64,000 nucleotides of DNA from Sphagnum compactum (GCA_965153455.1 OZ234493.1:18838213-18902212), one strand, 5' to 3'. Positions 1,403 through 62,400 are shown, counted from the first letter of the stretch. Notes: generated by a model from the sequence alone, not told the origin. Translations and numbers: made by a program.

Positions 1403-3711
1403 ACTTGCAAAAAAAGGAAGAATTTCAGACACCAACTCAGTTCTTTTTCGCCCCTTTTCAAATTAGCCCAATCGCTTGGTTCCTTCCCACTCTCACTCTC
1501 ACTCTCACTCCCACTCTCATGTGCAGTAGAGTATAAGTGTAGAGAAAATTAGAGTGTTTGGAAGTATGAGTGTACTTATAGGGGGATGGAGGCCCCTTCA
1601 CTCGATGAAGCGACTTCTCATTGGGTGCATGTAAAGTCTAATATGGGCTGCCACTATTTTTGGCCTGGAAAAATAGCCCTTCCTAACAACACTCTAAACC
1701 TATTGGTAATCCCTTCACTACCTTATCCTAAGGTCAGATTCGTCATTAAATAATTATCAAAATAGTGAAATGGATTCTTGTGAAAATGGGAAGTCGACAT
1801 GTTGAAAATCATGATAATTATCATAGGCTACACTCCCAATAATTTCACTATTCATATGACAATATCATAATAGCTAGATGGTGGAAAATTCAATAATTCT
1901 AAATTTTATAAACGATTTATTTTTAATTTTAATAATATTCATTTTGTCAATGTGGAAACTGACCCTAGGCTACGGTATGTGTCCCCATAATTCTGCCCCT
2001 GTAGTTCGCCCACGACCAAAATGGTGACAAAAATGGTGACAAACAGTTTTGGGAAGAGAAATTGCATGCCACCACCAAGTGGGAAGCTCTGCATGCCACC
2101 AAGTGGGAAGCTTTGCATGCACAGTCTAAGGTGCCCCCATTCTTTTCCTTTCGGGTTGGGTTGGGTTGGGTTGGGGTGGGTGGGAGGGGAGAGGGGAGAT
2201 TTCTTTTCATTTTTTCTTGTTCTCAATGTGTTCTCATCAGGTTCCCAATGGCTTTCCATCACGTTCCCAATTTTTTACCCAGTAATTATTTGTGCCTGTT
2301 ATTTTCGTAGATAAGAAAGTCAAAAGGTGAGCATCTTACTTCATGTGGTTGTGATCGCCAAAAGAGAAATGAGGCCAAATTTGTCGACCAAGCATGACGA
2401 AGGGCTTTGCTCACCCTTAGTTGCTTGAAAGTGAATGAAAAGAAGAAAAAGAAGGGGAAAATTTTGACAAGTTGTCAATGTAGTTCATTTACTAATGTTG
2501 AATTCAAATACCAATAGAGATATAAGGTATATTGCAGGGGGAGCCAATTCCTCAACAAAAACATAGTCATATTGGGCCACAAGTGAACCAGCACCCACCA
2601 GTGCACCATGAAGGATGAATGGTAAGGGTCAGGAAACAGTTTTCTGTTGGGTTTCAGTTCCCTGAGCTAACCGTGGTGGTTAGCTCAATTGCTTTTCCTT
2701 TTAACCTACCCACAAGCAGGTTGTTAGTAGGTAGGTAGTAAAAGCAGCCCTTACATATGGATAAACCATCTACTTACCTAGTAGTTAGCTATTTTCCTAC
2801 CTACCTATGTATGAGATCTATTTCCTACAGAATTGGTTACCAAAGTGAAACCAAATATTAACTCAGTTGAGGTTCATCCACAACTGAGTAATAGCAGGCA
2901 TCCAGTGGATGGTGCAATGGTGGGTGTTGGTTGGCTGTGCTGTCAATCATATTGTTGATGCTTGATGCCATAAAGTTTTTATGTTCATTTCAAAGGAATT
3001 ATTTTCCTTGCATGATTTGCAAAAATGTCACTCTTTGACTCAACGCATTAGTGTTTTGTGACTCCTAAAACTAACAATATTTACTTCAAATAACTCATTT
3101 TCATTGCATGATTCTTCTAACTCTTTAACATTGAGTCCCCATGGAACACTAAATTTGGATCATTCACCACACAATCGTGCGTTGCAATAATCTTATGTAA
3201 TGAGGAAAATGGTATGGGATTTTGTGAGAAAGAAAATTTTGTTATTGGTGCACAAGTTGTGCATTATTTTTCATGTGTGTGTGCAATTGGGAAAGCAATC
3301 TTGGCCATTGCTCTCCTACGGAAATCAACATATACTTGTCATAACGGTTTTAATTATGTGCCCTTGCACACTAGTAGTGAAGTGCACACAATTCTTCAAA
3401 AACTATTTGGGTTTTGGCTGAGATAGTAAAGATACATGTAACCTTCCTTCTCCTTAGAGTGTTGATTGTTTCTAGTGTAGAATTTTAATATCTTTTTGAC
3501 TAATTTCCCAACCTGGATTACTTGGACATCACTTTGACATCATTGTGTCAAAAGATGCAAGCTATAAATAGGGCATGTTGTGAGACTAAGAACTTCAATT
3601 TGTTAGAACCATCATCCATGACATTGGAATGAGATAAGCACATCTAAACTTGTGTATTAACAAGCCACTCCTCAGAAATGCCCCTTGAAGTTTCCTTGAG
3701 TACATGGAAAC

Positions 3712-4547
3712 TAGTGTGGGTGGTTCCTAGTTCTAGGAGGAACCTTCGGTTTCAGTTCCCAAACTTTTCAAGGGACTCAGTTATGATTTTTCTCACCTGT
3801 CTTCAAGTTCAGTCAGTTTTGGTTTCTAAATTGATGCCAGAAGCTCCAGTTCCGGTTCTCATCCAGTTCCAAAGTCCAAAACACCAAAATTTTCAATATG
3901 AAAAATCCAAACTTTTATTCCAAAGGGAAAAAATTTATTACAACGGTTCGATAAATGTCAAAGGCATAGAAAATAGCCTACTTTTAATTTTTAAATCACT
4001 CTAAAAGGTTTCTAGTTCCTGGAGTATCCGAGTCAATTTTATCCATTGCCATGTGGTTTCATGCTTAGGGTTTTTGCAATTGTGTCTACCACCTTGGAAT
4101 ATAGTCTTTTGTGACCCTCAAATTCAACCCAAGATTGTTTCCCAACCAGCTCTCCACCTTCAAGTTTCCCCCTCAAACAGCCTCAAATTTGTATCTCAAA
4201 TAGACCCCCAATTCAACCCTATTTCATAGCCCAATTCAACCTTCAAACAGCCCCAAATCTGCCCCCAAAAACACCGCCTCCCAAAATCCCTTCAAACACA
4301 AACCCCCCTCCCCAAAACAAAGGTTAAAAAAACCCAAATTCAAGATGGCATTACAAACCTGAACCCCCTAAACCCTAATCCCTACACCTGCCCTATGCCC
4401 TAACCCTAAAACCAAACCAGATTTCATTTTTAAAATTAGTCCAGTTCCAGCGATTCTCAATTGAGGGCCGTCTCCGGGTAGGTTCCAGGTACCTGAATCC
4501 AGAACCGCCGGTTCCTACCCAACCAACTGGGAACCTGCCCAACACTG
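3712..4547. mobile_element. Non-autonomous hAT-like element
   Basis: Ends TAGTGTGGGTGGTTC / GAACCTGCCCAACACTG form an imperfect TIR. The 8-bp flanks ATGGAAAC / GTGGAAAC match 7/8 (TSD). GGTTC/GAACC subterminal motifs are present. Confidence 0.7.
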
Positions 4548-4750
4548 GTGGAAACCTCAAATGAAGTTGCACCTGAGACTAGGAACTTTGCAGGAAGCTT
4601 TCAAAAGACAGGATCTGTCCCCTAATTACATATATTAAAGGAAGAATGAAGCTTCCCCTTAATCCGGACGGACAGTACCTACGGACAGTAGCTAAATATA
4701 GTAAGGACGTGTGAAGCTTCTCCTTAAAAGTGTACCTTACACTTTTGTAG

Positions 4751-5125
4751 CAGCATCTCCAGCGGGGCTCACTATGTGATCCTGCACAGTGAAAATCGAT
4801 GAAGAAAATCCAACATATGCCGGTTTGACTCAGCAAAATGGTTTTGGCTCAGCATAATTTCACAGTTTGCCGTCGCTGGTAAAAGGCTCAGCAGTGCTCC
4901 GCACCTGCGAAAAAGAGTGTGATAAATATGATCTAATTGCTGCTCAGTGTTTCTGATTAGCCCATCATAATGATTGGTCCAGGTGGTTTGTTATTAGTAG
5001 TCCTACACGTATTTTGCTGTCCCAGTTTCAGTTTTCTTGGTGGGGTTGCAAAAGTCTACATAACTAAACTTGGATGTGAAAAATAGTTTTGCAGGGTCAC
5101 ATACTGAGCACCGCTGGAGATGCTC
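4751..5125. mobile_element. Tourist-like (PIF/Harbinger) MITE
   Basis: ~35-40 bp TIRs GCATCTCCAGCGGGGCTCACTATGTGATCCTGCA / TGCAGGGTCACATACTGAGCACCGCTGGAGATGC, with TAG/TAA flanks. Confidence 0.8.
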
Positions 5126-5514
5126 TAAGGCCCCTTTCAAATACAAAAACTGTTTGAAAAGTTCTTCACATGGAGAATAAGGCCCCCCAAGGTGGCAAGC
5201 AATCTGAAAATAAGGGGCCACGACCCGGACAAAAGGTAGCTGAGTCTGACCCTGCATTTCATGGAACTGCCCCCCACCCATGTGCCTAAGCACTGTTGGC
5301 TTCCTTACCAAATAGATTCTTGGGATTCCCACGTTTCAAATTGAAACAAAAAAGGTGTTTTGCCTTTGCTAGTGTCTTGACAAATTTGAGATGTTGTCAC
5401 AATCTTGATTGGACTATATTAAAGTTGAAGTTGCTTTAATTGAAGATAATTATGAATTGATTGAAGAATCTAACTATTTTGAAAAGTTGAAAATTCAAAA
5501 TGATTCGGTATGTC

Positions 5515-5820
5515 ACTTTTTGGGTGTGTCAATGGGTTTTCAAGACTTTTTATCACACATTTTTTGGATGAAACTTTATTTCAAGACATGGGACATATTG
5601 ATGATCTTTCTCTATTGAGAGACGTTTAGGTTGCTTTGGACATTCTATCTTCATGTGTAGTTCGTCGACCTTCTTATCTCACACGGACAGTACCTCCTTC
5701 TTGTTCCTTCCTATGTTTTTTGGCGAGTTTTGACTAGAAAGTTATGCAAATATGTGAGGACATTATGGATCCAGAATCATGTGAACCTTTTTAAAGCCCC
5801 TTAGCAAGGCATTAGGCAAT
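5515..5820 (+). mobile_element. Degenerate non-LTR retrotransposon fragment (CRE-like, region after RT)
   Basis: Interrupted translation LGVSMG...HIDDLSLLRDV*VALDILSSCVVRRPSYLTRTVPPS resembles the LGxPxG...YLxRTVP region of CRE-type LINEs. Confidence 0.5.
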
Positions 5821-24649: not shown

Positions 24650-27581
24650 CACTACTACAAAAGTGGGGTGCAATTTACTAGTTTAAATCACTATGGGACT
24701 TTAAAAGTGAAATAAGTTCATTCCATTTTACTAATTTCACCTTGGTGAAAGTTATTTCATTATAATATCACTATGTAAACATCATGTTTCATTACTAATT
24801 AACATAATTCACTATTATAATTTACTGTAATAAATAGGTTTATTTTCATGTTTTTTTAATATTCTATCTATGTTATTTTATGATATACCTTATATTATTT
24901 TAAACTACTTTAGTTATTCTAACTTATATTTTATGTTATTATAGGTTATTATAAATTATTGTACCGTAAACTATTATATGTTATTTTACTTTAAAGTATT
25001 TTAATTAGCTTATTATAAGCTTTCTAAGTTATTTAAAATTAAATTATTCAATTAACTTTAAGCTATACCGTAGGTTATTTTATTTAAAATTAATATATGT
25101 TATCTCAAGTTATACTTTAAGTTATTCAAAGTCATTCTACTTTATGTTATTATAAATTATTTTATCTTAAGTATAATAACTTAAAATAATCTAAAATAAA
25201 AAATAATGACCTAAGGTAAAATAACTTAGAATAGAAAATAATAACCAATGAAAAATAATTTAAGATACCTTACAATATAATAACTACCAATAGCCTATGA
25301 TATTATAACATAGAATATCCAACAATAATTTATAATACAATAATCACCAATAGTTATAATATAACATATAATAACCAATAATAACTTATAATACAATAAC
25401 CATTAATAGAATAACCACTAATAATCATTAATAGAATAACCACAGTAGTCATTAATAGAATAACCACAATAGTCATTTATAGAATAACCACCAATAGTCA
25501 TTAATAAAATAGCCACCAATAACCATTAATACAATAACCACAAATAATCACAAATAATCACAAATAACCACCAATAGCCACTAATATAATAGCCACCAAT
25601 AACCATTAATAAAATAACCACAATATCACAAATAACCACCAATATCCACTAATATAATAGCCACCAATAGCCATTAATAAAATAACCACAAATAATCACA
25701 AATAACCACCAATAGCCATTAATAAAATAACCGTCAATAGCCATTAATAAAATAACCACCAATAGCCATTAATAAAATAACCACCAATAGCCATTAATAA
25801 AATAACCACCAATAGCCATTAATAAAATAACCACCAATAGCCATTAATAAAATAACCACCAATAGCCGTTAATAAAATAACCACCAATAGCCATTAATAA
25901 AATAACCACCAATAACCATTAATAAAATAACCACAAATAATCACAAATAACCACGAATAACCACTAATATAATATCCACTAATAGCCACTAATATAATAG
26001 CCATTAATAAACACCAATATCCACCAATAGAATATCCATCAATAGCCATTAATAGAATAGGCACCAATAACCACTAATAAAATAGCCATTAATAGGCACC
26101 AATATAATAACCTCCAATAGCCACTAATATAATAGCACCAATAGCCATTAATATAATAACACCAATAGCCACTAATATAATAACACTAATAGCCATTAAT
26201 AGAATAACCACCAATAGCCACCAATAGAATAACTAACAATGGCCATTAATAGAAGAACAATCAATAATTATTAATAGAATAACCATTAATTGACATTAAT
26301 AGCCACCAATAGAATAGGTTCCAATAGCCCTAATAAAAAAATAACTAATAACCATATATTGGAATTACTTAAGATTGCCAAAAAATAATATAGGGTGAAA
26401 TAATTTATAATAAACAAAATTAACTTAAGGTGAAATAGCCTAAATAATTTAGAATTGCCAATAATAACATAAAGTGAAATAACTTTTAATAGCCAAAAGT
26501 AACTTATAATAGCTACAAGTAGCCTAAACTAAAATAATTTACAATAGCCAAAAATAACATAAATTAGCCAAAAAAACTTACAATAGCTGAAAATACCCTA
26601 AGGTGAAGTAAGCTAAAATAGCCAAAAGTAACTTAAAATAACCAAAAGTAGTCTAGGGTGAAATAGCCAAAAATGACCAAAAGTAATTGAAAATAACCAT
26701 AAATAGTTGTAAACAATGTAGGGTGAAATAATTAAATTAATGAAAAATGGTCATATAATACTTGAAAATAGCTTAGCATAGGTAGTATTATTATATTAAC
26801 AAAGTTTTATCCATTTATTAAAAAAAAAATTTCCAAAACAATGGTCATTGAAATGTTATTGAATAATGATATTCAACTTTTTTTTGTTCAAATGATTTTA
26901 AACTTTCAAAAGGAAATAAATGTAATTATGTACATTATTGATTTTTAAAAAAAAGTAAACTCAAATCATTTCATTACAACAAAATCTCAATAAGATATGA
27001 ATTTTCAAAATTTATGTTTTTGTAATGTTTAAAATGAAATATTCGATAAATAGAATGTAACATAACATATTATCACAACAAGTGGGGTGGTTTGATGGTA
27101 AGGGTGTTTGGCTCTAATCCAAAGGTCAAGGGATCAAACTTCATGAGTGGTTTTGTGTGTGGTCAATAATGGTATGTTGACTGAATATTTTCTCCTATTT
27201 AATTCCTAAAATAGGTGCCTAGGTTGATTACGTGGCCTACCTACCTAGGCTAGGTTTTTAACCTAGCTAGGTAGTGACACATGTCAATAAATCATACGTT
27301 GAAAAAATCATGAAATTATCAATAATATTATATATTATATAATAAAATTTTAATTGATTTCCATGTTGGTTAGTTAATTAACTAGTAAGTGAATGGTTTG
27401 GTAAATTTATATTTCACTTGAGAGTAACCTTGTTTCACCTGGTACTAATGATATAATTCATTGTCCATAGCAACTGGTCCCTGTTCAGTAAGGGGTTAAA
27501 CAATTTCCCCAGGTAAAAATGTCCAAATTCACTCAAAATCTAGTGTACCCAAAGTGAACTAGGACGCATTTTGTAGTAGTG
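24650..27581 (+). mobile_element. Non-autonomous CACTA element with an internal fold-back AT-rich array and minisatellite
   Basis: 13-bp perfect TIR CACTACTACAAAA / TTTTGTAGTAGTG. Both arms are homologous to the elements at 49337-50430 and 55884-59975. The 3-bp flanks (TAA/CAT) do not match. Confidence 0.8.
25380..26330. repeat. 25-bp minisatellite AATAAAATAACCACCAATAGCCATT (8 near-perfect copies at 25721-25920, degenerate flanks)
   Basis: Directly visible tandem units. Confidence 0.9.
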
Positions 27582-33889: not shown

Positions 33890-35950
33890 TGGTTGAATAA
33901 AAAGGGTTTTCTACTAGTGATATAGTTGGCAATTGATGAAAGTAATTATCTCAAATTGAAACACCTTAACAAATTAAGTTCGTAGAATGCATTAAATTGG
34001 CGAATAAACATAAGTAATTCTTATAAGCCCATACAAATTAAGCTTTCACAACTAAAGCTTTTTGAGTGCATTTAGTTGGCCAACGTACATGTAAGTAATT
34101 CTTGCAAGTTGAAGCATTTACACAAATCAAGATTTTCAAGTGCACTCAATGATGAATAGATGAAACTAGTTATTTCAAATTGAAACACCTTGACAAATGA
34201 AACACTTTGAGTGCATTCAATTCACCCATAGATGAATGTATTTCTTTCACGATGCTTTCAAGTTGTAGAAGTCTTACAAATAAAAATTTAGAATGCATTC
34301 AATTGGCCAATAGATGAGGGTAGTTCTTCCAAGTTGCAACACTTTGACAAATAAAACTTTTGGAGCGCATTCAATTAGCCAATAAATGAAGATAGTTACA
34401 ACACCTTGACAAATTAAGCTCTTCAAGTGCAGTCAATTGGCCAATAGATGAAGGTAGTTCTTTCAACTTGGAACACCCTACCAAATAAAGCTTTTGGAGT
34501 GCATACAATTGGCCAATAGATGAAAGTAGTTCTTCCAAGTTGTAACACCCTACCAAATAAAATTGTTGGAGCGCATGCAATTGGCCAATAGATGAAGGTA
34601 GTTCTTTCAAATTGGAACACTATGACAAATAAAGCCCTTGGAGTGCATTCAATTGGCCAATAGATGAAGGTAGTTCTTTCAAGTTACAACACCATGACAA
34701 ATCAAATTTTCGGAGTGCATTCAATAGGCCAATAGATGAAGGTAGTTCTTTCAACTCAGAACACCTTTGCAAATCAAACTTTTGGAGTGCATTCAATTGG
34801 CCAACAGATGAAGGTAATTCTTTCAACTCGTAACACCCTTTCAAAACAAGCTCTTGGAGTGCATTCAATTGGCCAATAAATGAAGGTACTTCTTTCAACT
34901 CCGAATACCCCCACAAATCAAGCTTTTGGAGTGCATTCAATTGGCCAATAAATGAAGGTACTTCTTTCAACTCCGAACACCCCCACAAATCAAGCTTTTA
35001 GAGTGCACTCAATTGGCCAATAGATGAAGGTAGTTCTTTCAATTCACAACACCTATGCAAAACAAGCTCTTGGAGTGCATTCAATTGGCCAATAGATGAA
35101 GGTAGTTCTTTCAAGTTGCAACACCCCCACAAATCAAGCTTTTGGAATGCATTCAATTGGCCAATAAATGAAGGTAGTTTTTTCAATTCGAAACACCTAT
35201 GCAAAACAAGCTTTTGGAGTGCATTCAATTAGCCAATAGATGAAGGTAGTTCTTTCATGTTGTAACACCCCCACAAATCAAGCTTTTGGAGTGCATATAA
35301 TTGGCCAATAGATGAAGGTAGTTCTTTCAATTCACAACACCTACGCAAAACAAGCTCTTGGAGTGCATTCAATTGGCCAATAGATGAAGGTAGTTCTTTC
35401 AAGTTGCAACACCCTTGCAAATTAAACTCTTGGAGTGCATTCAATTGGCCAATAGATGAAGGTAGTTCCTCCAAGTTGCAACACCTACATAAATTAAGAT
35501 TGTGGAGTGCATTCAATTGGCCAATAGATGAAGGTAGTTCCTCCAAGTTGCAACACCCGCATAAATCAAGATTTTGGAGTGTATTCAATTGGCCAATAGA
35601 TGAAGGTAGTTCTTTCAAGTTGGAACACTCTCGCAAATTAAACTCTTGGAGTGCATTCAATTGGCCAATAGATGAAGGTAGTTCTTTCAAGTTGGAACAC
35701 TCTCGCAAATTAAACTCTTGGAGTGCATTCAATTGGCTAATAGATGAAGGTAGTTCTTTCAACTTGGAACACCCCGACAAATCAAGCTTTTGGAGTGCAT
35801 TCAATTGGCCAATAGATGAAGGTAGTTATTTCAAGTTGGAACACTCTCGCAAATTAAACTCTGGGAGTGCATTCAATTGGCCAATAGATGAAGGTAGTTC
35901 TTTCAACTTGGAACATCCTCGCAAATTAAACTTTCCGAATGCATTTAATT
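33890..35950 (-). pseudogene. Distal, out-of-frame continuation of the NLR LRR array (~28 further 72-bp units)
   Basis: Same 24-aa unit. Deletion/frameshift near 35955-35965; in-frame stops at about 35826, 35229, 34998 and 34620; progressive decay below ~34400. Confidence 0.9.
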
Positions 35951-37125
35951 GGCTTATATCTGAGCAAACTAAAGTCTGGGAGTGCATTTAATTGGTCAAT
36001 AGATGAAGGTAGTTCTTTCAAGTTGCACCCGCCCAAACTAAACTTTTGGAGTGCATTCAATTGGCCAATAGATGAAGGTAGTTCTTTCAACTTGAAACAC
36101 CCCGACAAATCAAGCTCTTGGAGTGCATTCAATTGGCCAATAGATGAAGGTAGTTCTTTCAACTTGGAACACCCCGACAAATCAAGCTCTTGGAGTGCAT
36201 TCAATTGGCCAATAGATGAAGGTAGTTCTTTCAAGTTGCAACACCCTTGCAAATTAAACTCTTGGAGTGCATTCAATTGGCCAATAGATGAAGGTAGTTC
36301 CTCCAAGTTGTAACACCTACATAAATTAAGATTGTGGAGTGCATTCAATTGGCCAATAGATGAAGGTAGTTCTTTCAAGTTGAAACACCCTCGCAAATCA
36401 AACTCTTGGAGTGCATTCAATTGGCCAATAGATGAAGGTAGTTCTTTCATGTTGTAACACCCCCACAAATCAAGGTTTTGGAGTGCATTCAATTGGCCAA
36501 TAGATGAAGGTAGTTCTTTCAAGTTACAACACCATGTCAAATAAAGCCCTTGGAGTGCATACAATTGGCCAATAGATGAAGGTAGTTCTTTCAAGTTGGA
36601 ACACTCTTGCAAATTAAACTCTTGGAGTGCATTCAATTGGCCAATAGATGAAGGTAGTTCTTTCAACTTGGAACACTGTCGCAAATTAAACTCTTGGAGT
36701 GCATTCAATTGGCCAATAGATGAAGGTAATTCTTTCAACTCGGAACACCCCGACAAATCAAGCTCTTGGAGTGCATTCAATTGGCCAATAGATGAAGGTA
36801 GTTCTTTCAAGTTGCAACACCCTTGCAAATTAAACTCTTGGAGTGCATTCAATTGGCCAATAGATGAAGGTAGTTCTTCCAAGTTGCAACACTTGCATAA
36901 ATCAAGATTTTGGAGTGCATTCAATTGGCCAATAGATGAAGGTAGTTCTTTCAAGTTGGAACACCCTCGCAAATTAAACTCTTGGAGTGCATTTAATTGG
37001 TCAATAGATGAAGGTAGTTTTTTTAAGTTGGAACACCCTTGCAAATCAAGCTCTTGGAGTGCATTCAATTGGCCAATAGATAAAGATATTTCTTCTAAAC
37101 TTTGGCATTGTGCCAAATCAAGTAC
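33890..37125. repeat. 72-bp tandem array encoding LRR units (LQxxxLxxCxxLKELPSSIGQLNA), about 44 units
   Basis: The core GGAGTGCATTCAATTGGCCAATAGATGAAGGTAGTTCTTTCAA recurs every 72 nt; count estimated from array length. Confidence 0.95.
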
Positions 37126-40100
37126 TTGTAATTGTAAATAAGAAAATAAATTATTTGGCAACTTTTGAATCATGCATTTTTTTAGGCACAACCACTTAAC
37201 ATTATTCAAATTTCGCCCTTGGATGCAATTTTCCACAATAGTTGGTGAAGCTTCTGTTAGGTCAACCAACCTAAGGTTGCGAAATCCCTTTGAGTCGATT
37301 TGGGACAATAGAGGCAAATTGAGACATTTTTTCAATGAAATGCCCTCTAAATTTTTCACCACCTATCACATGAAATGAAAGCAAAAAGGATTATCAATGT
37401 AAAAGAACATTTCTCGTAATGCCAAATTTTATTAGAAAAATATGTATTTATAAAATCAAAATTCAAAACTAAAACATTTGGTTTTGGACAAAAAAAATCA
37501 TAGGAAATTGAAATAAAATTATAGGATTGAAGTTGTATAATGACAACCTTATCCTTTTGTAAAAAATAATTTGATTGATGTGATTTCCATATAAATCGAT
37601 TCATAATTGGTGGTTCCATTGCAATATTCTGACCCATGTCTCGTAATTGTTCATGTATGTACAAGATTCCACCTTCTTTCCATTGGATTAAAGATCTGTC
37701 TTGTAAATTTTGTAAGTCAAACTTTGGGTATTCATAATTTCCCCTCCACGCTCGACAAATTGTACTTATTTTCAAACCACCAAAAAAACAAGCAATATCC
37801 AAAAACATGTCTTGAAGTTGCTTATCCAAATGGTCATAAGAAATCCTTAATACACTCCAAAGTTTTTCATTATCATTGCCCCCAGTGAGACTTTGCCCAC
37901 TTTTCAATTTGTTTAATGCACCTTCCCACATTTTTAATTTTTTAGTATTGCACAAAAAAGAACCCAATACTTTAAGACTTAAAGGGAGCCCCCCACAAGC
38001 TTTTATAATCTTCATACATATATCGTTGAAATCTTCTATTGGAACACGATTTCCATTACCCGATGCATGTAACATAAATAGTTCCCTTGCTTGTTTTTCC
38101 TCCAAAGGTTTCATGTCCACTTTTCCATCCTCACTTACATGAGATTCCAAACTTTGCCAATTTCGACAATTCACAAGTACTCTGCTTTTAGAAGTTGGAT
38201 TTTTTGTAGCCTTATCAATGAAAATTGGCAAAGATGTAAGGTTTTCCTCCTTACCAACATTATCCACCACCACCAACACTTTCTTTAATATCATACATTG
38301 CCTAATTTTGTCAAGGTCTTCTTTTTTCACATTTTCATCTTTGCATAACCTTTTGCCACACAAATCATGTAGGAGTTGTTTTATGACATCATTGATATTG
38401 TCCTTTGAATTCACATCCTCTAAAAAACTAGACTTATCATATTGGTTGTGGAACATATGATAGAATTTGTTGCTCAAAGTGGTCTTCCCAATCCCACCCA
38501 TTCCAACCAAACCAACAATAGATTCCTTTTGTAACAAGATGTTTATGTCTTTTGCTTTGTCAATCAATGCCACCTCATGACATGGCAAAGGTGGAAACAA
38601 TATATTTTTCTGTCAAAATTCACAAAATATAAGTCATTTATATGTTATACTTCTTATTTGATAACCAATATATATGACATTGCATATGTGATACACATCA
38701 AGTGTGCTATGACCTAATGTGTATCAAATTACATGAACATATATGAAATCAAAAGATTTAGATTTCGTGTTTTTACCTCCATACATATTTTCAAACATTT
38801 TAACAATAAATCGTAACTTGGATGATCTTTGTTTGGTGGCTTGCAAATTGTCAAGTGATTAGCATCTTCAATTTTGTAATGGTTTTTGTTTGACAATCGA
38901 ATAGCTGAGGCATATTTCACTAAAATTCCCTGCATGTGCAAAAAATTAAGTTAATGGAATTCATTGATTATTTTGTTCACTTATGTTTTAACTTATAAGT
39001 AACATAGTAATTCCAAGCAGTGGTGGGAACCAAGTTTAATAACTATTAATGTTTGAATCATAATCAATTTGTGTGTAAAATTAATTTCCTTCAACCCTTT
39101 GGCAAGCAAATTATATAAATACATCACAAAGTTATTGGTTTTTAATCTCATTAATCTTACATGTTTTAATGATGTTATGATTTTCCTTATAAATATTTAT
39201 ATGGAATTGATTTGATGAAGGGACCATTTAAAACCTATTTCTTGATGTTTGAAATCAATTGAATTTCCTTTCCATCAATAGTAATTCATGAAACAAATTT
39301 CATAAAACACATGACCCATTCACCACATTAATATATTCAGAAGTATTGAGTCCTTGATCCCAAACAAATTTTGACAATACAAAAAATGTTCAACTAATGA
39401 ACCAAGTTGGATAACTTTCAATATGGTGAAATGAGAATCTTACCCAATTCTCGTCAAGTGGTAATCCTTCACCAAATGCATAAATGTTGACGTCTTCGTG
39501 AATGGCATTTTTAAAATCCTCTGAAAGGTCTTCCATTTGTGGGTTGAAAGGTTCTAAATTTTTTGAAAAACCAAGTTGGGTTGCATACTTGTTCAACAAG
39601 TTGATTTGTTGATATTGCCAAATGAAATATTTTGATAAATATTGGGTACCACCAGAATGTGGCACACCATAAAATACTACACCTTTGACATTGTTCAAAA
39701 ATGTTTTACAACATTTATGTATTTCATCATCCAAACCATTTTTTGGCCGTTGATATACATGTTTATAAGCTTCAACCACCAAGCTTTTGAGTACAAGACC
39801 TCCAAAACTATAAGCAATTAATGCCACGGGTCCATCCCACAAGGATTGATAACTACAAAATATTCAACAATGCACCAAAATTTTGTTATCAACATTGTAT
39901 TAGCATATACAAATTTATCCTATTATACTTGGAACAATTTTCCAATTCACACATGACCTAAGCCATAAGTTCATAATCAATTTGCTCATCATTTGTCATT
40001 TTTCATTTATTGATTCCATTAATGTACTTAAAAAATGTGACAACCATGTTTTGGTAAAACTATTATTATGTACAAGTATGTAGGTGTTTACATTTTTGTG

Positions 40101-47416: not shown

Positions 47417-49336
47417 CAGCTTCATCTCATCTGAGGATTAGACCGGATACTATATTGTGTAGTCTTCCCCCCATTCTAGTCCATGGTGATGGGCTGCCCC
47501 TGGTTATGTACTTCCCTTCTGCAGGGTGCAAGGTCCTTCTCTCCCTCTCTGTCTGTTCTGTTTCTTTCTCTGTGGCTTTTTATATTTGTGATCTCCTGTA
47601 TAGCCTGCTTAGACTCTCATTTGGTAAGCAAGATCAGTTACCAACTCCAACCTGACAGTGGGTCACCTTTGCACCCATCTTTGGCTCTTTTATCCTGTAT
47701 CTTTTAGTTAATAAAATTAGGGTGTTTGTGCACTTGTGAACGAGACAGATTATAGTTGTGGAAGGTTTTCATTATTGGTGGTTTGATTTTTGGCATATTA
47801 CTATAGTCTGCTGAAAGTTTTCTGAAGGTTGGCATTCCTGCACAGATTGTGAAGTTATTATTGTCTTTCCTTTCTGCTGTCTATCTCCTATTACACAGGT
47901 ATTGATAATTGGAGCGTTCCTCATGCTCTGTGTTCATGTCATCCCTTGAAAAAACATAGGTTAAGCACAGATAACAGGGGCTGTTGACAATAATTCGTTT
48001 GCCCAAAATGAAGTAGTTTCAGTACAGGTGGCAGGAGGTCCTGAAACAATCATGCATTTGTGGGTGTTTTAGCTCCACCAGGTGTTATACATCTCCGGGA
48101 ACTCTAGCAATAGGAAACTCATCTGCAAGTTGAGAAAATTGTGTCTCTTTCAGGGGTTTGGGGCCAGGCATGGATCCAGGTACTCTGAGTGAAGGAATGA
48201 ATTTTTTGCTGGACATCAATTTAGAGCCTCAGGGGACTTTAATCGTTGATCAGCTGTCATCACACATGATTGGCCGGTGGAATGGTGATTGAGATCATCT
48301 TTCTGATGGATGGGGTTTCTGCTCTCTTCACTCCTGCCATTGTTGCGCTAATGTTCTTGCCGTGTTGGTGTATGACACAAGCAAGTAAACCTATGGCTAG
48401 CATGCATGCATGTGCTTCAGGATACAGGTTCTTCACCTTCATTTTTAGTTTATCCATTGTGGTTACTCTTCCTTTTAAGATTGGAAGTCGGGATACGTTG
48501 GCCACTTGGGTGTAATCACAAGAATTGGAGGATGGATTTTCAGAGTTACTGGGGTTGCCAACACTAGCCTTTGGGGAATGTGGAGTTATTTTTTTATTAT
48601 TTTCATTATAACTTTTGACAAAGGGCAAGGCTCCTTATTCTGGGTATTGTGATTGCAAACTCCCTATATTCAAGCTATGTATCCTAGTGTACAAGGAACT
48701 TACAACCAATGTTAACATGTTTTAAAAGCTAGGTAGGATCATGTGCAAGTGGAAAGTGCCAAATGAGTTGAATTTTATGGAGGAGATTTCGTAATTTTAA
48801 ACCTTAGATGCAAGAGATATTGAATTTTGAATAATCTTTGTCACTAAAAAGTCAGCTAAGTTATAGAAAATAAATTCAACCAAATTACAAAAAACTATAG
48901 GATTCAACCAAATTATAAAAGGTTATAATGTAATTTTTAAAAAAGTTCGAATTGAAAATTTGAAACAAATCAGAATGTATTTTGATCATGATTGTAATTT
49001 GGAATATGGTTGGGTAATTTGAATGCAAAGTAAATAGGTTTATGATAATTGGGCCAATAAGCTTTTAAGCATTTTACAATTGGTTCATTACATTGAACAT
49101 AAGTTCAAATGTGATCAGGAAGGGAGTTGTTATTTGTGGTATCAATGTGATTTTGTAATTTAAAAGTAAAATGTGTGAGGTCTTGTGATTACGAATCAAG
49201 TGTTAGTACCATAAACTTTAATTTATCCACATTAAAATTTATTGTAATAAATATTAGACAAGAACTTGGTGGTTTGGATAATACATTATTTAAAAGTTTC
49301 ATGAACTTTTTAAAATGAGTAAAATGAAATTGATAT

Positions 49337-50430
49337 CACTACACTAATATGTGTCCAAGTTCACTATGTGTTTCACTAGATTTTGAATAAAATTGAATAA
49401 ATTTATCATGGTAAAAGTGACCAACCCATCAGTAAATGAAGATCAATTGCTATGTGTAAGTGAATTCATTAATCATTAATCAAATTCATTTATAGTTAAT
49501 CGAATTCACCAATAATGAATCAAATTTACTAATAGTTGAATCATTAATAATAAATTCACTAATAGTCAATTAGGAACCTAAATTATACACCTAAGAACTT
49601 TTATTAAACTACCTAAACTAAACTAAGAACCTAGCTCATAAACACTTAACCCACCAACCTAAGGTACAAGTGTGAAGGTTTGAGCCTTCCATCTTTAAAA
49701 CTTAAACCCATTAAACATTAACCCATTAAACCACTATTTAAATGAATGATATTCTTTTGTCATCACATATTATTATGTACATTTTTTTTAACCCTAGGTT
49801 ATTTTAGGTTTTTGTACCATAAGTTGTTTTTGTTGATTATAAATTATTCTCTTGTAGGTTATTATTGACTATTCTAAGCTATTTATCATAGGCTATTGTT
49901 GGTTATTCTATCATAGGTTATTTTAACAATTATACCATAGGTTATTATTGATTATTATATCATAGGCTCCTTTTGGTTATTCTATTATAAGCTAGTTTTT
50001 GTTATTTTAAGTTATTGTATTGTAAGTTATTGTAGGTTATTTTATCGTAGGCTATTATTAGTTATTATGAATGACCTTGAATAACTTAAGGTATAATAAT
50101 TTATAATAACCTATACTAGCTTATAATAAATTAAGGTATAACTTAGAATAACCTAGGTTAGCTTAAAATAACACAACGTATAACCTAAAGTAACTTACGA
50201 TATTGAAAACAACAACATAAAAATAAATATATTTAATTATTATTTTGAATTATTTCAATTAGTAGTGAATTATGTCAAATAATCATGAAACATGAGGTTA
50301 ACAAAATGACCTTATAATGAAATAACTTTAAGCAAGGTGAAATCGTTAAGGTGGGGTGAATTTATTTCACTTTTGAAGTCCCATAATGATTTAGGCTAAT
50401 GAATTGCACCCCACTTTTATACATTTAGGA
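49337..50430 (-). mobile_element. Shorter, more decayed copy of the CACTA family, reverse orientation
   Basis: 49337-49400 is the reverse complement of the family right arm; 50330-50420 is the reverse complement of the left arm (AAAAGTGGGGTGCAATT...TATGGGACTT); same internal AT fold-back. Confidence 0.7.
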
Positions 50431-55330: not shown

Positions 55331-56149
55331 ACATTGATCATAATCCCATTTAACTTGTATTTTCCAAATGATAAATTCAAAATAATAAATCTAGGAGAGA
55401 TTACTCATTCTTCTAGATATGTTACGTTTGAATAGATTTGACGACTTGATTTTTTCTTATTTTTTTATGGTATTTTAAAATGCACTTTTTACTTTTTAAA
55501 TATAAAAAGGGGTATTGCATCCTTGGATGGACCCACTAAGAACTACCTCAAGGAATGGTAAAACTATCAAAATAATTTTATTTTTATTTTTTTCATAGCC
55601 ATTTTTTTTTCTCATGTCTATCCATTGCATACCAAAATACAAAATCTAAAGTGTTCATTGGAATTTTTAAAATGTGAGAAATATGGCAAATTCAATTTCC
55701 TAATTACAATTGTCTTTTTTAGAATCATTCTCCTAAAATTTGGAAATTCATAATTAAATTATACCTACTCAACTAACTACATAATACAAAATTCAAATAA
55801 AATGCCTTCTAAAGTACCTATGAAAATTATTTTTAAATAAAGTATCAAAACATGTTTGAAACTTGCGTTTTTAAAAAAACATTCACTACTATAAAAGTGT
55901 GGTGTAGTTCATTAGGCTATTTCATTGTGCAAACATAAAAGTGAATTAAGTTCACTATAATTTCATTGCTCTTACTTTCATTGGTGAAAATGGTTCACTA
56001 TATTGTGTACATGTTTATTAAGGATGAAGTTTGTTTACTAGATTTTTTTTTAACATTATTAAAATAATTATTAAAAAAATCTTTAGTTAATTGAGTTTAA
56101 GACATTACTAAATTAATTAGTTAAATGTGACATATTTTATCTATATATT

Positions 56150-59100
56150 CCCATTTCAAGCATTGATAATGCGTTTGAGAATCTGAAGCTTCAAGCAGAG
56201 CTGCGAAAACAAGGAAGAAAGCATGGTGCTGGTGATGGCCCTCCATTCTACTACTGCAACAGCAGCAGCAATGATGGAGAAACAGAAGAAAGAAGAAGAA
56301 GAAGCTGGATGGGATTCTTCCTTCATGATGGGTTGTTGCAGCCGATTGTGGGTGTGCACTACTACCTTGTGTTCTGCGAAAGGAGAGATCACCACTTAGG
56401 CTTTCATGTCTGGCTTGATCGACCACAAGCTCTAGATCATCATCGTTGTCGAAGAAGCAGCATCTCCTCCTCCTCCTCCCCTCAATTCTTGTCTTACAAG
56501 AGACTAGCATTGAGTAATTCTTCGTACATGGAGTTTTTGCAGGAGGAGGAGGAGGAGGAGAAGAAGCACAAGCTGCTACTGCTGGAGGAGGAGGAGGAGG
56601 AGCAGCAAGGTGGGGGGAGACTAGGGTTCAATCTGGAGAGATTGCGATGGCTGTGGTCCAAGGAACCTGCATCGGCATTTGCAGGAGCGAGCAGCAGTAG
56701 CAGGTTGAGAACAACGACACTGGGCTTGCAACACACGATGAGGAAGAAGCAGCAGCGATGCAACTTCCAAGTACTGCAAAAGAGAGAGAATCTGAAGCTG
56801 GTCTTGAGAACAACAGTAGCTAGCTGGTGGTGGTGGTGGTCGTCAGCGGGAGGAATGTCACCGATTGCTCGACAGCAAAGCTTCTTGTTCAAAAGATGGA
56901 AGAAGAATTGGACGTTCGGCGGCGGCAGCCGCAGGAGCAGCAGTACAAGAAGAACAACTTCTTCCAACAGCAGCAGCAACATATTGGCGCTTCTGAGGGA
57001 ACAAAGGGATGATGACGATGACGTGCAGCTTCCGCAATTCAACAGGATACAGATCACCTACTCCTCGCACAAAGGGGAGAGGTTCTATGGATTCGGCGAG
57101 TAGTTCTCGCATTTCGACATGAAGGGGAAACGCGTCCCCATCCTGGTGCAGGAACAAGGTCTTGGTCGTGGTGACCAACCCATCACAGCTGCTGCAAACC
57201 TCGTCGCCCACAGGTGCTGCTGCTTCACCATCTCATCATTGCTCTCCTCCCATCATCCCTCCTGCATCTTCTTCTTCTTCTTCTGTTCCTCCTTGTGGAG
57301 GATTTGGGTTTTTGCAGGCTAAGTGTCTGCTGGGCTACATCGATTCTGCAAAAACCTACATCAATCATAGCACAATGCATCATCCCAGATCATCTATTCC
57401 CTTGTGGATTTGGGTTCTTGCAAGCTAAGTGTTTGCTGGGCTCCATTGAATCTGTGAAAACCTACATTGATCATAGCACAACCCATCATCCCAGATCATC
57501 TGTTCCTTGTGAATTTGGGTTCTTGCAGGCTAAGTGTCAATCAAGCAGAATTTTTCCTTCCTTGCAAGGTAAGGATCTGCTACTCGATCGAGGAGCAGAA
57601 TGTCTTGTCAGTGAAGGAGGTTTGCACACTTCAAGGGGAAGGACGTAACTGAGGCTTGTTTGCTGTTGTTGTTGGTATTTTTCCAATGTGATTTGCTGAT
57701 TGCAGAGCAGGAGGAGCTTGGCATACAACGTATGCTCCTTCTCCACATTACATGACTTCCGATCTGCACTCTGTGTTTCTGGAGAATTTCGAGTACTCAG
57801 TGTTTGACTTGACTCATCATGATCGTGTCCACTTGCAAGTGTGTGTCCCTCTTTCAATCCCTTGAACACTTGTGAAAAAATCTGATGAAGAGTTGAGAGA
57901 AAGAGCTCAAGGAAATTCCAAATCCTGTAGAATGTTTTTGTAGCAGTCAGTCCTTTATAATATCCAACAATTGCAACAAGCAAAGTGCAAGAGGGAAGAT
58001 GAAAGAAGAAGAAGAAGCAAAACATGAGAAGCTCAAAGTGAAAGAGGAAGAAGAGAATTCTGCAATTGTCCAAAAGCTCTTCTTGGGGTATTGTTGTTTG
58101 CACTTGGGATCTTGTGGGGGTTGTGGTCAGAGTGTTGCATGGATAAGAGTTTAAGGGAGTGGTACAGGTTCATGCAGGTAGTGTGCAGGGGCGTATATTG
58201 CAAGGACATACACCAGCAGAACTGATCAAACATTACACTGCAGCAACGGGACGCATGTGAGAACTTCCGAGCTGGATTACAAAGGGTGCAATTGTGGGGA
58301 TGCAAGGTGGATTACAAGTTGTGCATCAAGTCTGGGAGAAGCTTCAGGACTTGGATGTGCCACTCTCTGCTTTCTGGCTCTAAGTGAGTGTAGAAGAAGC
58401 TCCCAGTTGACTTATGGTTTTGTTCCTCCTTGAACTGTGTACACACCATTTCTAAACTGCAGAAAGATTCAGCAATGCAAAAAAGCCTAATAATATACTG
58501 GGGATCTGTTTTCCAGGACTGGGTAGGCCAGAGAAAGACCAACATTGGGTGGCAACTCTGGTGGAATTGGGAAGTGGACTCACAAGCACATCCTGACTGG
58601 GAAAAGCTGGTGCAAGATCTGCGAGCACATGGCATTCGCACTATGACTTATTGCAATCCTTTTCTCGCCTCTGTGAGTGATACATAGACTTTATCCTGCT
58701 TGCTTATGATGCTAGTTATATCCCATCCTGTAGAAGAATTTGCTTGATTGATGACAGTCCTCATGAATTTCTTTTCCCTGCTATATCCTCTTGCAATGCC
58801 TTCCCAGACAGATGAGAGCCCAACAGAAGACGGAATATGTTTGATGATGCCAAGAATGAGGGGATGGTTGTGGGAGATAACCTGGTGCACCTTACATGAT
58901 TCCAAATACAAGCTCGATGCTGCCATGGTGGACCTCACGAACCCAGCTGCACGCAAGTGGTTCAAAAGTATCTTACACGACATGGTTAAGACTGGCGTCC
59001 ACGGATGGATGGCTGATTTTGGGGAGTCCTTGCCTTTTGATTCCTGCCTCTACTCTGGTACATACCCTAAGCCCTTCTTCACAAAATGTTGACCCAAGCC

Positions 59101-59416
59101 AGAGTACATCTTCATTGCTAACTACATATAAGAATGGATCAGTTGCAGTCTCTAGTTTTTATATCTGCCAAGACTTCCCCTTGCATGTCATGTCCCTAAC
59201 TGATGCTCATATACAAAATTTCACGGCTGTGGGTTCTTCTTTCTTGAGTTGCATTAAATTGTATGTTCTTGCAAAGGGCTAACAACAAACGGGGTAACAC
59301 TGCATGCAGGTGAAGACCCTGCCACAGCTCATAACAAGTACCCAGAGCTGTGGGCAGAGTTAAATAGGGAGTTCTTGGAGGAGTGGGAGAAAGAGCACAA
59401 AGTGCAGAGGCGCTAA
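56150..59416 (+). pseudogene. GH31 alpha-glucosidase, sulfoquinovosidase (YihQ)-like gene fragment; exons ~56150-57213, 57706-57838, 58168-58383, 58517-58672, 58808-59057, 59310-~59416
   Basis: Peptides ERFYGFGE*FS, VQEQGLGRGDQP, TTYAPSPHYMTS, GAIVGMQGG, AFWL*DWVGQR...WWNW, YCNPFL, VDLTNP, GWMADFGE (nucleophile) and AHNKYPELWA. GT-AG introns. Stops at 57101, 58258 and 58381; three apparent 1-nt deletions in exon 5; truncated at both ends. Confidence 0.9.
57291..57537. repeat. ~107-bp tandem repeat (2.3 copies) in intron 1 of the GH31 fragment
   Basis: CCTTGTG..ATTTGGGTTxTTGCAxGCTAAGTGT recurs three times. Confidence 0.9.
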
Positions 59417-62400
59417 TAAAGTTAGTGGGTAGTAGTCATGGCAACCCATCACTGCTATTTCTAACGAAGGTGATGGTCTGACATTTTGTGATGAGCAACT
59501 CTTTTAAGTTTTTGTCTGCACTCCTTGTCCTGTTCCTGTCAAAGTGTTGTTAAGGAGATTTCTCTGCACTTTCATAGAGTTGTGTTAATAATCTGTCTGA
59601 TTTTGCTAAATTCCTGCATACATATTTGCTTCTATGGCAAAGAGGATGCTCTCTCAGAAAATGAGCTGGTACATGGCAGGATCCAGCTACAGGAACTGCC
59701 CATTGCACATTGGGCCCTTATTGGGCATCAAAACTTGGAAAGAAAGAATTGAAAGCGTTTCAAGTAAGGAAATTGATCAATAGTTGTATTCCACTTGAAT
59801 TTGGGCATCATTTATTACCATCTTGTTTCACTAGCTTAATTGACCTGTTCGTAGCAACTGGTCCCCATTCACTAAGGGGTTAACATGTTTTACCATGATT
59901 TCCTATAGTGAATTTGTCCTAGTTCACTCAAATCCTAGTGAAATACAAGGTGAACTTGGCCACCTCCTAGTAGTGATTCAAAGAAAAAACACCATGTGAC
60001 AGTCTTGAAACTTTTTTTTAATGAAGTGATTACAAACATCAAAATACATAATATTTTTTTATCGCATTAAAGATTAAAATTCTATACAACCTAATTAGTG
60101 CAATCAAAAAAATTCAAATGAAAAGTTTCATTTAAATGTTTCTTATTATTTTAAAGTTCAATAGGTCTAATAAAAGGAAAAAGATGACATTCATAGTGGG
60201 TCCACCCAAGGATGCTTATACATGAAGACAATTACTACAAATATGGAAATTTTCATGCTATGATTATAATTCCGTCATTGTGGAAATATGCATTTGATTC
60301 AATAATTCATTTGATATTTTGGTCATTTGTTTCATGAAAAACAACCTCTCATAACAAAAACAAACATAAATGGGAATGTCCAAAACATGCATCTTAAAAA
60401 CATCAAAATAATAATAATTCATTATACAATGTAAATGAACTTCTTGAACTAATGGGATTTCATAGTTGGAGTTTGTCTTGTTAAAAATAGTTTATACTTA
60501 TATTTGATGTTTTTTGAGCAAGATATTTCATGTTATACAAGTTTGGTTTTTGTTTTGTCAAAATTTGTATTATTTTTTAAACATATGTGAGTTTTTTCAT
60601 TGAAAGAAAAATGTATATGGGATTGTAATAAAATTTCAATGGGTGTATGGGCTTGGCCCTATGAGTTGGGTGCATTTGGATTTGTGATGCAAAAGTTCTT
60701 GAATATTGAATGATTTTTTCACTGAAAATTAAATTGAATTGTAGCTGAAATTTTTGAAGGAATTGGAATGTGCCTTTGGTGTTGTTGGAAAGATTTTGAT
60801 GAGCAGGATTTAATGGAATTTATTTGGTAAGATTTGGATTTAGAATGTGGGAAATATTGATTTTTTAAATGATTTCTGCCGCTGAAAATTCAAATAAATT
60901 CCAAAAAACCAGGTTTTGGAAGGAAAAATCAGTTGAGGATGTGGTAACACTTGGGCCAACGGCACATGCCACACCAGTAGAATGTTACAATTGAATTGTA
61001 TCAATTTTTAATTTTTTTTAAATGGGTTAATTTAATGTGTTTCACTTTTTATGACATTAACAAATTCAAATAATCATGACTTGATATGAACATGTTGGCA
61101 AGTTTTTTCATGGATGAGTTTGGTGAGTCGAAAACACATTGAAGTATTTCATGATCAAGTTTCTTGTTCCAATGGAATCTTGAATGTTTTTGTGGAATTT
61201 CTTCCATCACAATGATTGAAAGTCTTAAAGGCTATGAAAGTTATTTGTAATTAATTCCAGTGACATTGGAACTAGTCTATATGGGGTTCTTTGCAAAAAG
61301 TTTCATAGGTCACTTCTACAGGACCATTCCAAAGACAATTAAAAAATAACTACCTCATTTTCAAGCCTCACTACTTCATAACTATTTCATGACTTCTTTC
61401 TTTATGACTACTTCCTTTTCCTATTAACTTTCATAATAACTATCTCCCACCTTTCTCCTATCCACCAACATATATATATAAACATATGTATTTTCATGTC
61501 GATGAAATGTATATTAATTTAAATTAAATTTGACATTGACATAAATATATGAAAACATAAAAAAAATTAAAATAGTTGATCGTCACTAGTAACACATAGC
61601 ATTGCAAAGCTCAAATATATTGAACATGAAAGAATTATTTGAAAAAAATATTGAATATGAAGATGTGACTTTAAGTTGTCACCAACAACTTTTTCAAATG
61701 GAACACACTTGATTAATCTTTATGCAGTGTAGGAAAAATGGTTTTATATGAAATTTTCAAAAAACAAATGTCAAAGATGTATGTTCATAACAAGATCAAC
61801 TAAGACTTGAAAATTGGTAAATGAGGTGAAACTTGAATATTAGATAACCAAAAAAGTTTGAAAGTTGAAAATTCTATCATCTCCAATTAGTGAGATTATA
61901 ACTTGATAATGAGAGTTGAAAACTATATAACTAGATGTTACAAATAAGAAGGTGATATAATCTAATAGGTATATCTAATAACAAATTCTTTAAAGAGGAG
62001 AATAAGAAAGTTGGGTCTACAATCAAACACTAGAAGATTGCCATTTTTAATGAGGTTCAAATCCATGCATCATTATCCATTGCAAAGATTTTTAACATCC
62101 TTTCATATTTGGGACAAGTGGAGTCATCAAATTTGCAAGTTGTGAATGCCTTTGTAACACAAAATGTTACAATTAATCCACCAAAAAGTGCAAAAATACT
62201 CACTTTGCTTCTCATGGTCATCTACTTGCATCTAATGGCACACATTAGTCTACTTCTATCCATCTTCAACACAGATCATGAGAAGCAAAGTGATCTTAAT
62301 CTCCTCTTACCATGTAGAACGTCATTGCTTGACCACAACATTCCATTCATTAGTGGGCTCCAATCAACCTATGAAAATTAGGTCCTCAATAATGTGCATG

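What the first reader, a model, noticed from the sequence alone, without database searches (positions are those of the whole stretch)
55884..59975. Pack-CACTA that captured a multi-exon host gene fragment
Seen: CACTACTA termini, an exact ATT TSD and arms shared with two cargo-free family members in the same window. Between the arms lie ~3.3 kb of a GH31 gene with five introns retained and both ends cut within coding sequence. Known: Pack-CACTA and Pack-MULE capture is DNA-mediated and described mainly in angiosperms. Inference: a clear example in a probable bryophyte, where an annotation pipeline would wrongly call a glucosidase gene.
Basis: partly seen in the sequence, partly recalled or inferred. 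Interest (0 to 1): 0.75.

Follow-up and report, generated by a model that had tools for sequence, protein, structure and literature searches.

The report
Peat-moss transposon carrying two gene fragments
A 4.1-kb jumping element in a peat-moss genome has copied pieces of two unrelated host genes and carried them to three places, a clean moss example of the gene-shuffling already known from flowering plants.

Summary
Confirmed, and the cargo is richer than reported. Window 55884-59975 is a non-autonomous CACTA element in a Sphagnum genome. Two sisters (97%) lie at other sites with their own 3-bp target duplications. The intact single-copy GH31 (YihQ-like) parent is on C4 without CACTA ends. A differently labelled organism shows the empty site. 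The window copy has 3 stops and 3 frameshifts and lacks both protein ends. It belongs to a family of about 24 copies; 13 of 14 paired elements have a duplication, and members carry at least six other host fragments. The in-window 'sisters' are only distant relatives. One sibling holds a circularly permuted DET1 piece nested inside an older cargo, which favours break-patching over the paired-insertion model, but it is one copy and unchecked by reads. I found no bryophyte Pack-CACTA in print, but this scan had already noted Pack-type elements on other DNA of this genome. Verdict: new member of a known kind.

The parts
55881..55883 (+). left copy of 3-bp target-site duplication (ATT)
55884..56178 (+). 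left arm, 295 bp: CACTACTA terminus plus short subterminal motifs; 87-92% identical to about 23 other left arms
56179..56182 (+). 4-nt junction filler between arm and GH31 cargo, present in all three copies (last base differs in one)
56183..57213 (+). GH31 cargo exon 1, cut at about residue 215 of the 970-aa homologue; premature stop at 57101
57214..57705 (+). intron 1 (GT..AG), with a 111-bp tandem duplication also present in the parent
57706..57838 (+). GH31 cargo exon 2
58168..58383 (+). GH31 cargo exon 3; stops at 58258 and 58381
58384..58516 (+). intron 3, short form; the parent in this assembly has about 486 extra bases here that organism C's single-copy gene lacks
58517..58672 (+). GH31 cargo exon 4 (best structural matches are YihQ-type sulfoquinovosidases)
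58808..59057 (+). GH31 cargo exon 5 with the WMADFGE motif; three 1-bp deletions (58816, 58881, 58913)
59310..59406 (+). GH31 cargo exon 6, cut at about residue 684, upstream of the WAGDQ and HSDIGGY motifs
59408..59783 (+). second cargo from a PhzF-like gene (C4:2,107,968-2,108,343): intron 3' part with a high-copy ~180-bp repeat, one whole exon, start of next intron
59680..59763 (+). complete 84-bp PhzF-like exon; RNA reads run on into its native neighbouring exons on both sides
59779..59975 (+). right arm, 197 bp, ending TAGTAGTG; first 5 bp are a microhomology shared with the PhzF donor
59976..59978 (+). right copy of target-site duplication (ATT)

Best explanation
A young non-autonomous CACTA (Pack-CACTA) element. 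SHOWN: one founder joined a 295-bp left arm, 3.2 kb of genomic intron-containing GH31 DNA, 0.38 kb of a PhzF-like gene and a 197-bp right arm. It then moved as a unit to three sites, each with its own 3-bp duplication. Both donors are still in place. The cargo cannot give a complete enzyme and is decaying. INFERRED: movement used transposase supplied in trans by other CACTA elements of the genome. Cargo entered stepwise, by repair of breaks inside the element with ectopic chromosomal DNA (gap filling or template switching, joined by 0-5 bp microhomology or short filler). I put about 55% on that route for the GH31 piece, 35% on paired neighbouring insertions, 10% on others. The confidence figure below is for the identity as a mobilised Pack-CACTA.
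For: Three copies, 97% identical end to end, at unrelated sites with duplications ATT, TTT, ATG. 13 of 14 arm-paired family members have a 3-bp duplication, chance about 0.02 each. The parent has no stop over the 638 captured codons, continues on both sides, has no arm match in 10 kb, and its 3' half is single-copy. Organism C contig joins 55885 to 60054 with 74 letters between (73 expected for an empty site) at single-copy depth, and its GH31 contig runs on past the cut. The three copies form a star: 0, 1, 1 shared against 30, 9, 22 private changes in 3229 sites. Private C-to-T change per site is CG 2.4%, CHG 1.2%, CHH 0.4%, against T-to-C 0.2%, as expected of methylated DNA (small counts). 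At least 150 Transposase_21 matches exist, many in open frames. For break-patching: a DET1 piece sits inside the mitochondrial-carrier cargo with only about 15 bp of that cargo lost.
Against: No transposase-bearing element with this family's exact termini was found; the related DUF4218 elements on C16 showed one terminus, with different subterminal sequence. The window copy's inverted repeat is a perfect match for only 8 bp, against a median of 11 in the family. The window element lost most of both family arms, so its own junctions cannot tell gap filling from paired insertion; short microhomology fits both. The empty site comes from one short-read contig whose flank is an old dispersed repeat. 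One PhzF-carrying copy lies 0.47 Mb from its donor and three captures hit the same PhzF gene, which suits local hopping.
Confidence: 0.93

Rival explanations
1. Same element, but the GH31 piece was captured by the paired-insertion route (Catoni et al. 2019): two copies inserted in the GH31 gene at the two cut points, lost complementary halves, and moved as one hybrid. The captured donor allele was later lost from this lineage.
For: The layout fits: 5' part of one element, chromosomal DNA, 3' part of another that already carried PhzF. About 40 sites are fixed in all copies but differ from today's parent, and the parent has an intron insertion the copies lack, so a different allele may have been captured. 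One PhzF gene was hit by three captures with different ends (donor positions 1591-3754, 2786-4695, 4969-5344). A related terminus lies about 106 kb from the GH31 donor.
Against: No arm remnant in 10 kb around the GH31, PhzF, DET1 or carrier donors. It does not explain the DET1 piece nested in an older cargo with a 15-bp loss, nor its permuted order.
Confidence: 0.35
2. The GH31 gene is native here and the two arms are independent insertions.
For: The terminal inverted repeat is short (8 bp perfect) and a 3-bp match arises by chance about 2% of the time.
Against: The same arm-cargo-arm unit occurs at three unrelated sites with different duplications; the intact parent is on another contig; organism C has the empty site.
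Confidence: 0.01
3. The copies are segmental duplications, Helitron products or assembly duplicates.
For: Copies are 97% identical, and single assemblies can duplicate sequence.
Against: Similarity stops at the CACTA ends, within 3 bp on each side. The copies differ by 1.0-1.6% with a methylation-type spectrum. In run X10 the contigs break at the intron-3 insertion point and one spans the short form.
Confidence: 0.02
4. The element is, or is becoming, a functional chimeric gene (truncated GH31 plus PhzF exon).
For: Sister C15a has no stop or frameshift in 638 codons and all five splice pairs intact. Some RNA reads with no further difference cover sites where the Pack copies differ from the assembled parent, so sisters cannot be excluded as their source.
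Against: Window copy: 3 stops, 3 frameshifts; C15b: 2 stops. All copies lack the first ~214 and last ~285 residues and hit a stop four codons past the cut. C15a has only 9 private changes, so an open frame is unremarkable; 15 non-synonymous against 7 synonymous differences show no clear constraint. RNA reads carried no window-private allele at any of 12 listed substitution sites (5-21 reads each), and PhzF-exon reads splice to native PhzF exons.
Confidence: 0.05

Closest known systems
Pack-CACTA elements of Arabidopsis (Catoni et al. 2019, PMC6379663; parts 2-3 of 5 read)
   Same: Non-autonomous, CACTA termini, 3-bp duplication, conserved arms of a few hundred bp around chromosomal DNA from several loci, low copy number, several cargo groups in one family.
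   Different: Terminus is CACTACTA(G), not CACTACAA; host is a moss; cargos are longer (to several kb, multi-exon); mobility is inferred from copies, not seen live; one sibling cargo is nested and permuted, which the paired-insertion model does not predict.
Pack-TYPE elements of rice and maize (Gisby and Catoni 2022, PMC8903248; term search and parts 2-3 of 7 read)
   Same: Multi-locus cargo, newest DNA in the interior, Pack-CACTAs richest in distinct loci.
   Different: The main text has no mention of moss, bryophyte, Sphagnum, Physcomitrium, Marchantia or Selaginella; supplements not seen.
Pack-MULEs and GingerRoot of the lycophyte Selaginella lepidophylla (PMC6839031; passages read)
   Same: Gene-fragment capture by TIR elements outside seed plants; large elements; recent captures at 93-99% identity.
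   Different: Other superfamilies, and a vascular plant.
Animal Pack-TIRs: gap-filling and FoSTeST models (Tan et al. 2021, PMC8277862; passages read)
   Same: Short microhomology at breakpoints, small loss of element sequence at an internal insertion, multicopy elements far from their donors.
   Different: Proposed for animals; the authors leave plants open; the word 'circular' does not occur in the main text.
Duplication through circular DNA intermediates (Chicote et al. 2020, PMC7450558; abstract only)
   Same: Reversed block order with only microhomology or short indels at the breakpoints, as in the DET1 cargo of sibling C13b.
   Different: Large human segmental duplications, no transposon carrier; the window's own cargos are colinear.

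Membership tests
CACTA (En/Spm) superfamily | termini begin CACTA and end TAGTG as short inverted repeats | tested here: met
   8 bp perfect in the window copy, 10-11 in its sisters
CACTA (En/Spm) superfamily | 3-bp target-site duplication | tested here: met
   ATT; sisters TTT and ATG; 13 of 14 paired members
CACTA (En/Spm) superfamily | subterminal repeats in both arms | tested here: inconclusive
   3 and 4 copies of a short GTGAA-type motif in both orientations; motif chosen by eye, no control
CACTA (En/Spm) superfamily | link to a CACTA transposase (autonomous partner) | tested here: inconclusive
   two members keep DUF4218 remnants; at least 150 Transposase_21 matches genome-wide; no partner with identical ends found
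Pack-CACTA / Pack-TYPE | non-autonomous, no transposase inside | tested here: met
   all but about 5 of 4092 bp are assigned to arms and two host donors
Pack-CACTA / Pack-TYPE | internal host gene fragments with an identifiable parent elsewhere | tested here: met
   GH31 parent 97-98%, PhzF parent 96%, both without arms
Pack-CACTA / Pack-TYPE | DNA-level capture (introns kept) | tested here: met
   five introns plus PhzF intron parts
Pack-CACTA / Pack-TYPE | moved as a unit after capture | tested here: met
   three sites, three duplications, empty site in organism C
Pack-CACTA / Pack-TYPE | present-day mobility | not testable with these tools
   0 of 23 reads of DNA run X21 at seven listed window-private sites carry the window allele, which hints at presence/absence polymorphism; 7 other private sites were not shown
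GH31 YihQ / sulfoquinovosidase subfamily (parent gene) | closest solved structures are YihQ-type enzymes | tested here: met
   E about 1e-26 against 1e-10 or worse for other GH31
GH31 YihQ / sulfoquinovosidase subfamily (parent gene) | Q288-R301-W304-Y508 sulfonate-binding motif (PMC12780224, passage) | tested here: not met
   Q, W and Y present, but Q stands at the R301 position, as in 110 of 110 motif-bearing homologues among 120 listed
Capture through a circular DNA intermediate | permuted block order with an exact break | tested here: inconclusive
   not met for the window's own cargos (colinear); met in sibling C13b, one copy, with an unexplained identity difference between the two blocks

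The most novel reading that the evidence does not exclude
This moss Pack-CACTA family takes up cargo by patching breaks inside the element with foreign chromosomal DNA, at least once with a host gene segment that had been excised as a circle. In sibling C13b the 2,233-bp DET1 segment is present as [5576-5754][3522-5575], opened at a single point with no gap or overlap and inserted into an older cargo. That would be a route of gene capture that I did not find described for plant Pack elements. It would also make this young, polymorphic family a natural archive for settling how Pack elements acquire unlinked genes.
Probability: 0.3. Interest if true: 0.7.

Novelty: new member of a known kind. 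Interest (0 to 1): 0.42.

Why it matters
It extends Pack-CACTA gene shuffling to mosses with unusually complete evidence: parents, sisters, target duplications and an empty site. It warns annotators that three of the four GH31 'genes' of this type in this genome are transposon cargo, and that one still has a clean reading frame. The copies preserve an older allele of the donor. The family's nested, stepwise cargos bear on the open question of how TIR elements capture unlinked genes; a 2026 review still allows for an undiscovered mechanism (PMC13317346, section 7 read).

Tried and rejected
In-window pairs 681-3379 and 24650-27581 as true family members: rejected, with no or weak similarity and no duplication. 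Reading 59640-59670 as a continuation of GH31: rejected, it is PhzF intron. The missing 486 bp in intron 3 as a deletion in the element: rejected in favour of a later gain in the parent, since organism C's single-copy gene lacks it and 389 bp of it match a site 0.3 Mb away at 98%. Ordering the PhzF and GH31 captures by divergence: 10 of 373 against 24 of 1341 fixed differences is too few, and the planned test did not run. Internal TAGTAGTG motifs in the right part of some members as relics of fused neighbouring copies: no similarity to either arm in the one member tested. Homologue search with parent exon 1 among proteins of 985 aa or more found nothing; the true homologues are shorter than that cut-off. 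RNA silence of the window copy cannot be concluded, because the RNA individual differs from the assembly (58592) and may lack the insertion. The joint 55763-60399 in run X10 has only 21 letters on one side and is not used. Wider flanks of the donors were not examined beyond 10 kb. Paper searches gave nothing that bears on the element.

Full report
OBSERVATION. The element runs from CACTACTA at 55884 to TAGTAGTG at 59975, with ATT on both sides. The 8-mer is over-represented in the window: 8 against 1.24 expected, 0 of 100 shuffles. The window is C1:18,838,213-18,902,212 of a 382-Mb assembly. A parent exon is 97% identical to a Sphagnum troendelagicum protein, and the next hits (other mosses, liverworts) are 70-74%, so the host is a peat moss. 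They belong to a related subfamily.

SISTERS, PARENT, EMPTY SITE. A search with the cargo gave four places: the window, two on C15 and one on C4. The C15 copies match the window end to end at 97%, stop at the CACTA ends, and carry TTT and ATG duplications. The C4 locus has no arms within 10 kb, continues in open frames on both sides, has no stop over the 638 captured codons, and its 3' half is single-copy. In run X11 (organism C) one 999-bp contig joins 55885 to 60054 with 74 letters between, where 73 are expected for an empty site. In the same run a 5.2-kb contig covers the GH31 cargo at single-copy depth and runs on past the cut. The left flank is an old repeat, but this contig is about 89-93% identical, far above the 69-78% of other repeat copies, so it is probably the orthologous site.

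ANATOMY. Left arm 55884-56178; 4-nt filler; GH31 56183-59406; PhzF-like piece 59408-59783; right arm 59779-59975. The GH31 piece has six exon segments and five GT..AG introns; RNA depth is low over the introns. It covers residues about 215-684 of the 970-aa homologue and keeps WMADFGE (636) but not WAGDQ (734) or HSDIGGY (767). That the two catalytic aspartates lie in WMADFGE and WAGDQ is recalled from YihQ, not from a call. It holds an intron end, a whole 84-bp exon and the next donor site, in the same sense as GH31. RNA loose ends confirm the exon's borders (23 and 24 reads).

AGE AND FATE. Over 3229 sites the three copies have 30, 9 and 22 private changes and almost none shared pairwise, plus 40 differences common to all against today's parent: one founder, one burst. 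Private C-to-T changes follow CG > CHG > CHH (9 of 126, 11 of 317, 14 of 1070 sites over three copies), as expected if the copies are methylated (inference). The window copy has 3 stops and 3 frameshifts, C15b 2 stops, C15a none. The parent has since gained about 486 bp in intron 3, absent from the copies and from organism C. In RNA run X22 (about 12% read) no read carried a window-private allele at the 12 such substitution sites listed, with 5-21 reads each. This does not prove silencing. The RNA individual differs from the assembly (58592), and DNA run X21 of the same study showed 0 of 23 reads with the window allele at seven spaced sites, so that material may lack the insertion. Only 40 of 327 rows were shown. 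Against a simple reading, some RNA reads with no further difference cover sites where all Pack copies differ from the assembled parent (for example 59001-59002). They come from a parent allele closer to the captured one, or from a sister copy; I could not tell which.

FAMILY. Arm searches, each limited to 40 scored candidates, gave 24 left arms at 87% or more and 18 full right arms; a terminal pattern gave 44 matches against 2 for the control. Fourteen pairs could be joined within 14 kb (1.3-13.6 kb) and 13 have a 3-bp duplication, all at different sites. Ten left arms and five right arms stayed unpaired. Pfam on 149 frames (145 of the 171 extracted, plus 4 donor and window exons) found mitochondrial carrier, PhzF, DET1, ATG8, kinase, proteasome ATPase, a weak WAPL hit, DUF4218 transposase remnants and a reverse-transcriptase insert inside paired members. 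Candidate donors lie on C4, C8, C10, C11, C17 and C3; I checked only the GH31, PhzF and DET1 loci for reading frames. The three GH31 carriers form one supported clade in an arm tree of 13 rows, C15d left out (98/96). At least 150 Transposase_21 matches exist, but no autonomous element with identical ends was identified.

MECHANISM. Movement as a unit is shown; the capture route is inferred. Of 15 junction comparisons run, 14 aligned, covering 8 junctions in other members plus the three of this element. They show blunt joins, 1-5 bp microhomology or short filler, with one 47-nt telomere-like filler and no long homology. Both models allow that. Two features discriminate. First, one PhzF gene was captured with three different sets of ends, and two of the captures share 15 differences from the donor in about 940 sites; this suits either local hopping at that gene or shuffling among family members. 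Second, a DET1 segment sits inside the carrier cargo with about 15 bp lost, which two randomly truncated copies would rarely produce but gap filling predicts (PMC8277862, passages). In C13b that segment is in the order [5576-5754][3522-5575], with an exact break and a blunt end-to-start join, the pattern ascribed to circular intermediates in human duplications (PMC7450558, abstract). Against it: only one copy shows the permutation, although the downstream junction is shared by 7 copies; that copy has lost its left arm; no reads were laid on it; and the 179-bp block has 0 differences from the donor while full 179-bp windows of the other block have 1-10, which a single event does not predict well. 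The window's own cargos are colinear.

COMPARISON. The element meets every testable defining feature of Pack-CACTA (PMC6379663, parts 2-3 of 5; PMC8903248, term search and parts 2-3 of 7). Pack-MULEs are known from a lycophyte (PMC6839031, passages). Searches for bryophyte cases (listings only) and term searches in two reviews (PMC13317346; PMC12187468) found none. Searches for circle-mediated capture by Pack elements (PMC10462705 passages; scan notes) found none either. The library lacks most subscription papers, Sphagnum genome papers may be among them, and I read no supplements, so absence from print is not established. This scan had already noted Pack-CACTA, Pack-MULE and Pack-hAT elements elsewhere in this genome; one lies at or beside a locus sharing cargo with member C15d.

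VERDICT. A real, well-documented, chimeric Pack-CACTA in a peat moss: a new member of a known kind, with a modest range extension and one mechanistic lead worth checking with long reads. Interest 0.42.

Noticed in passing
L133:4515-8049 (C13:14.022-14.026 Mb, minus strand): Family member with a circularly permuted DET1 segment inserted into the mitochondrial-carrier cargo; single copy; the 179-bp block is identical to the donor while the rest is 96%.
   Followed up: partly
L089:1591-5344 (C4:2.105-2.108 Mb): One PhzF-like gene is the donor for three captures with different ends, in seven copies; one carrier lies 0.47 Mb away.
   Followed up: partly
L008:4710-5190 (parent intron 3): About 486 bp gained by the parent after capture, replacing 6 bp; 389 bp match C4:13,528,705-13,529,097 at 98% and include a high-copy repeat; looks like templated filler.
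   Followed up: partly
L006:3202-7309 (C15:7,786,201-7,790,308): Sister copy with an unbroken GH31 frame and intact splice sites; likely to be annotated as a gene.
   Followed up: partly
L008:4440-4610 (parent exon 4): The parent and 110 of 110 motif-bearing homologues, nearly all from plants and many labelled sulfoquinovosidase, have Q where YihQ has the sulfonate-binding R301; the label may be wrong.
   Followed up: partly
window 56525-56935: Low-complexity in-frame stretch of about 135 codons that the S. troendelagicum protein lacks, yet RNA depth here equals exon depth.
   Followed up: no
L075:5173-5219 (C8a element): 47-nt filler of telomere-like repeats in both orientations at a cargo junction.
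   Followed up: no
L148/L081 (C5:14.085-14.095 Mb): Family member whose left arm and first 1.8 kb of interior are inverted and lie beyond its right end.
   Followed up: no
L084:2800-6600 (C15c element): About 3.8-kb insert with a reverse-transcriptase match inside a Pack element.
   Followed up: no
window 59408-59580: High-copy ~180-bp repeat carried along inside the PhzF intron.
   Followed up: no
window 33916-37128: 72-bp tandem array of about 40 units; an earlier scan note calls it part of an NLR gene.
   Followed up: no
window 681-3379, 24650-27581, 49330-50421: Other CACTA-like ends without matching target duplications; the second has an internal AT-rich tandem array.
   Followed up: partly
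L091:1110-3699 (C10:0.555-0.558 Mb): HMG-CoA reductase gene 5-8 kb inside an unpaired right arm; no left arm within 19 kb, so cargo status is unknown.
   Followed up: no
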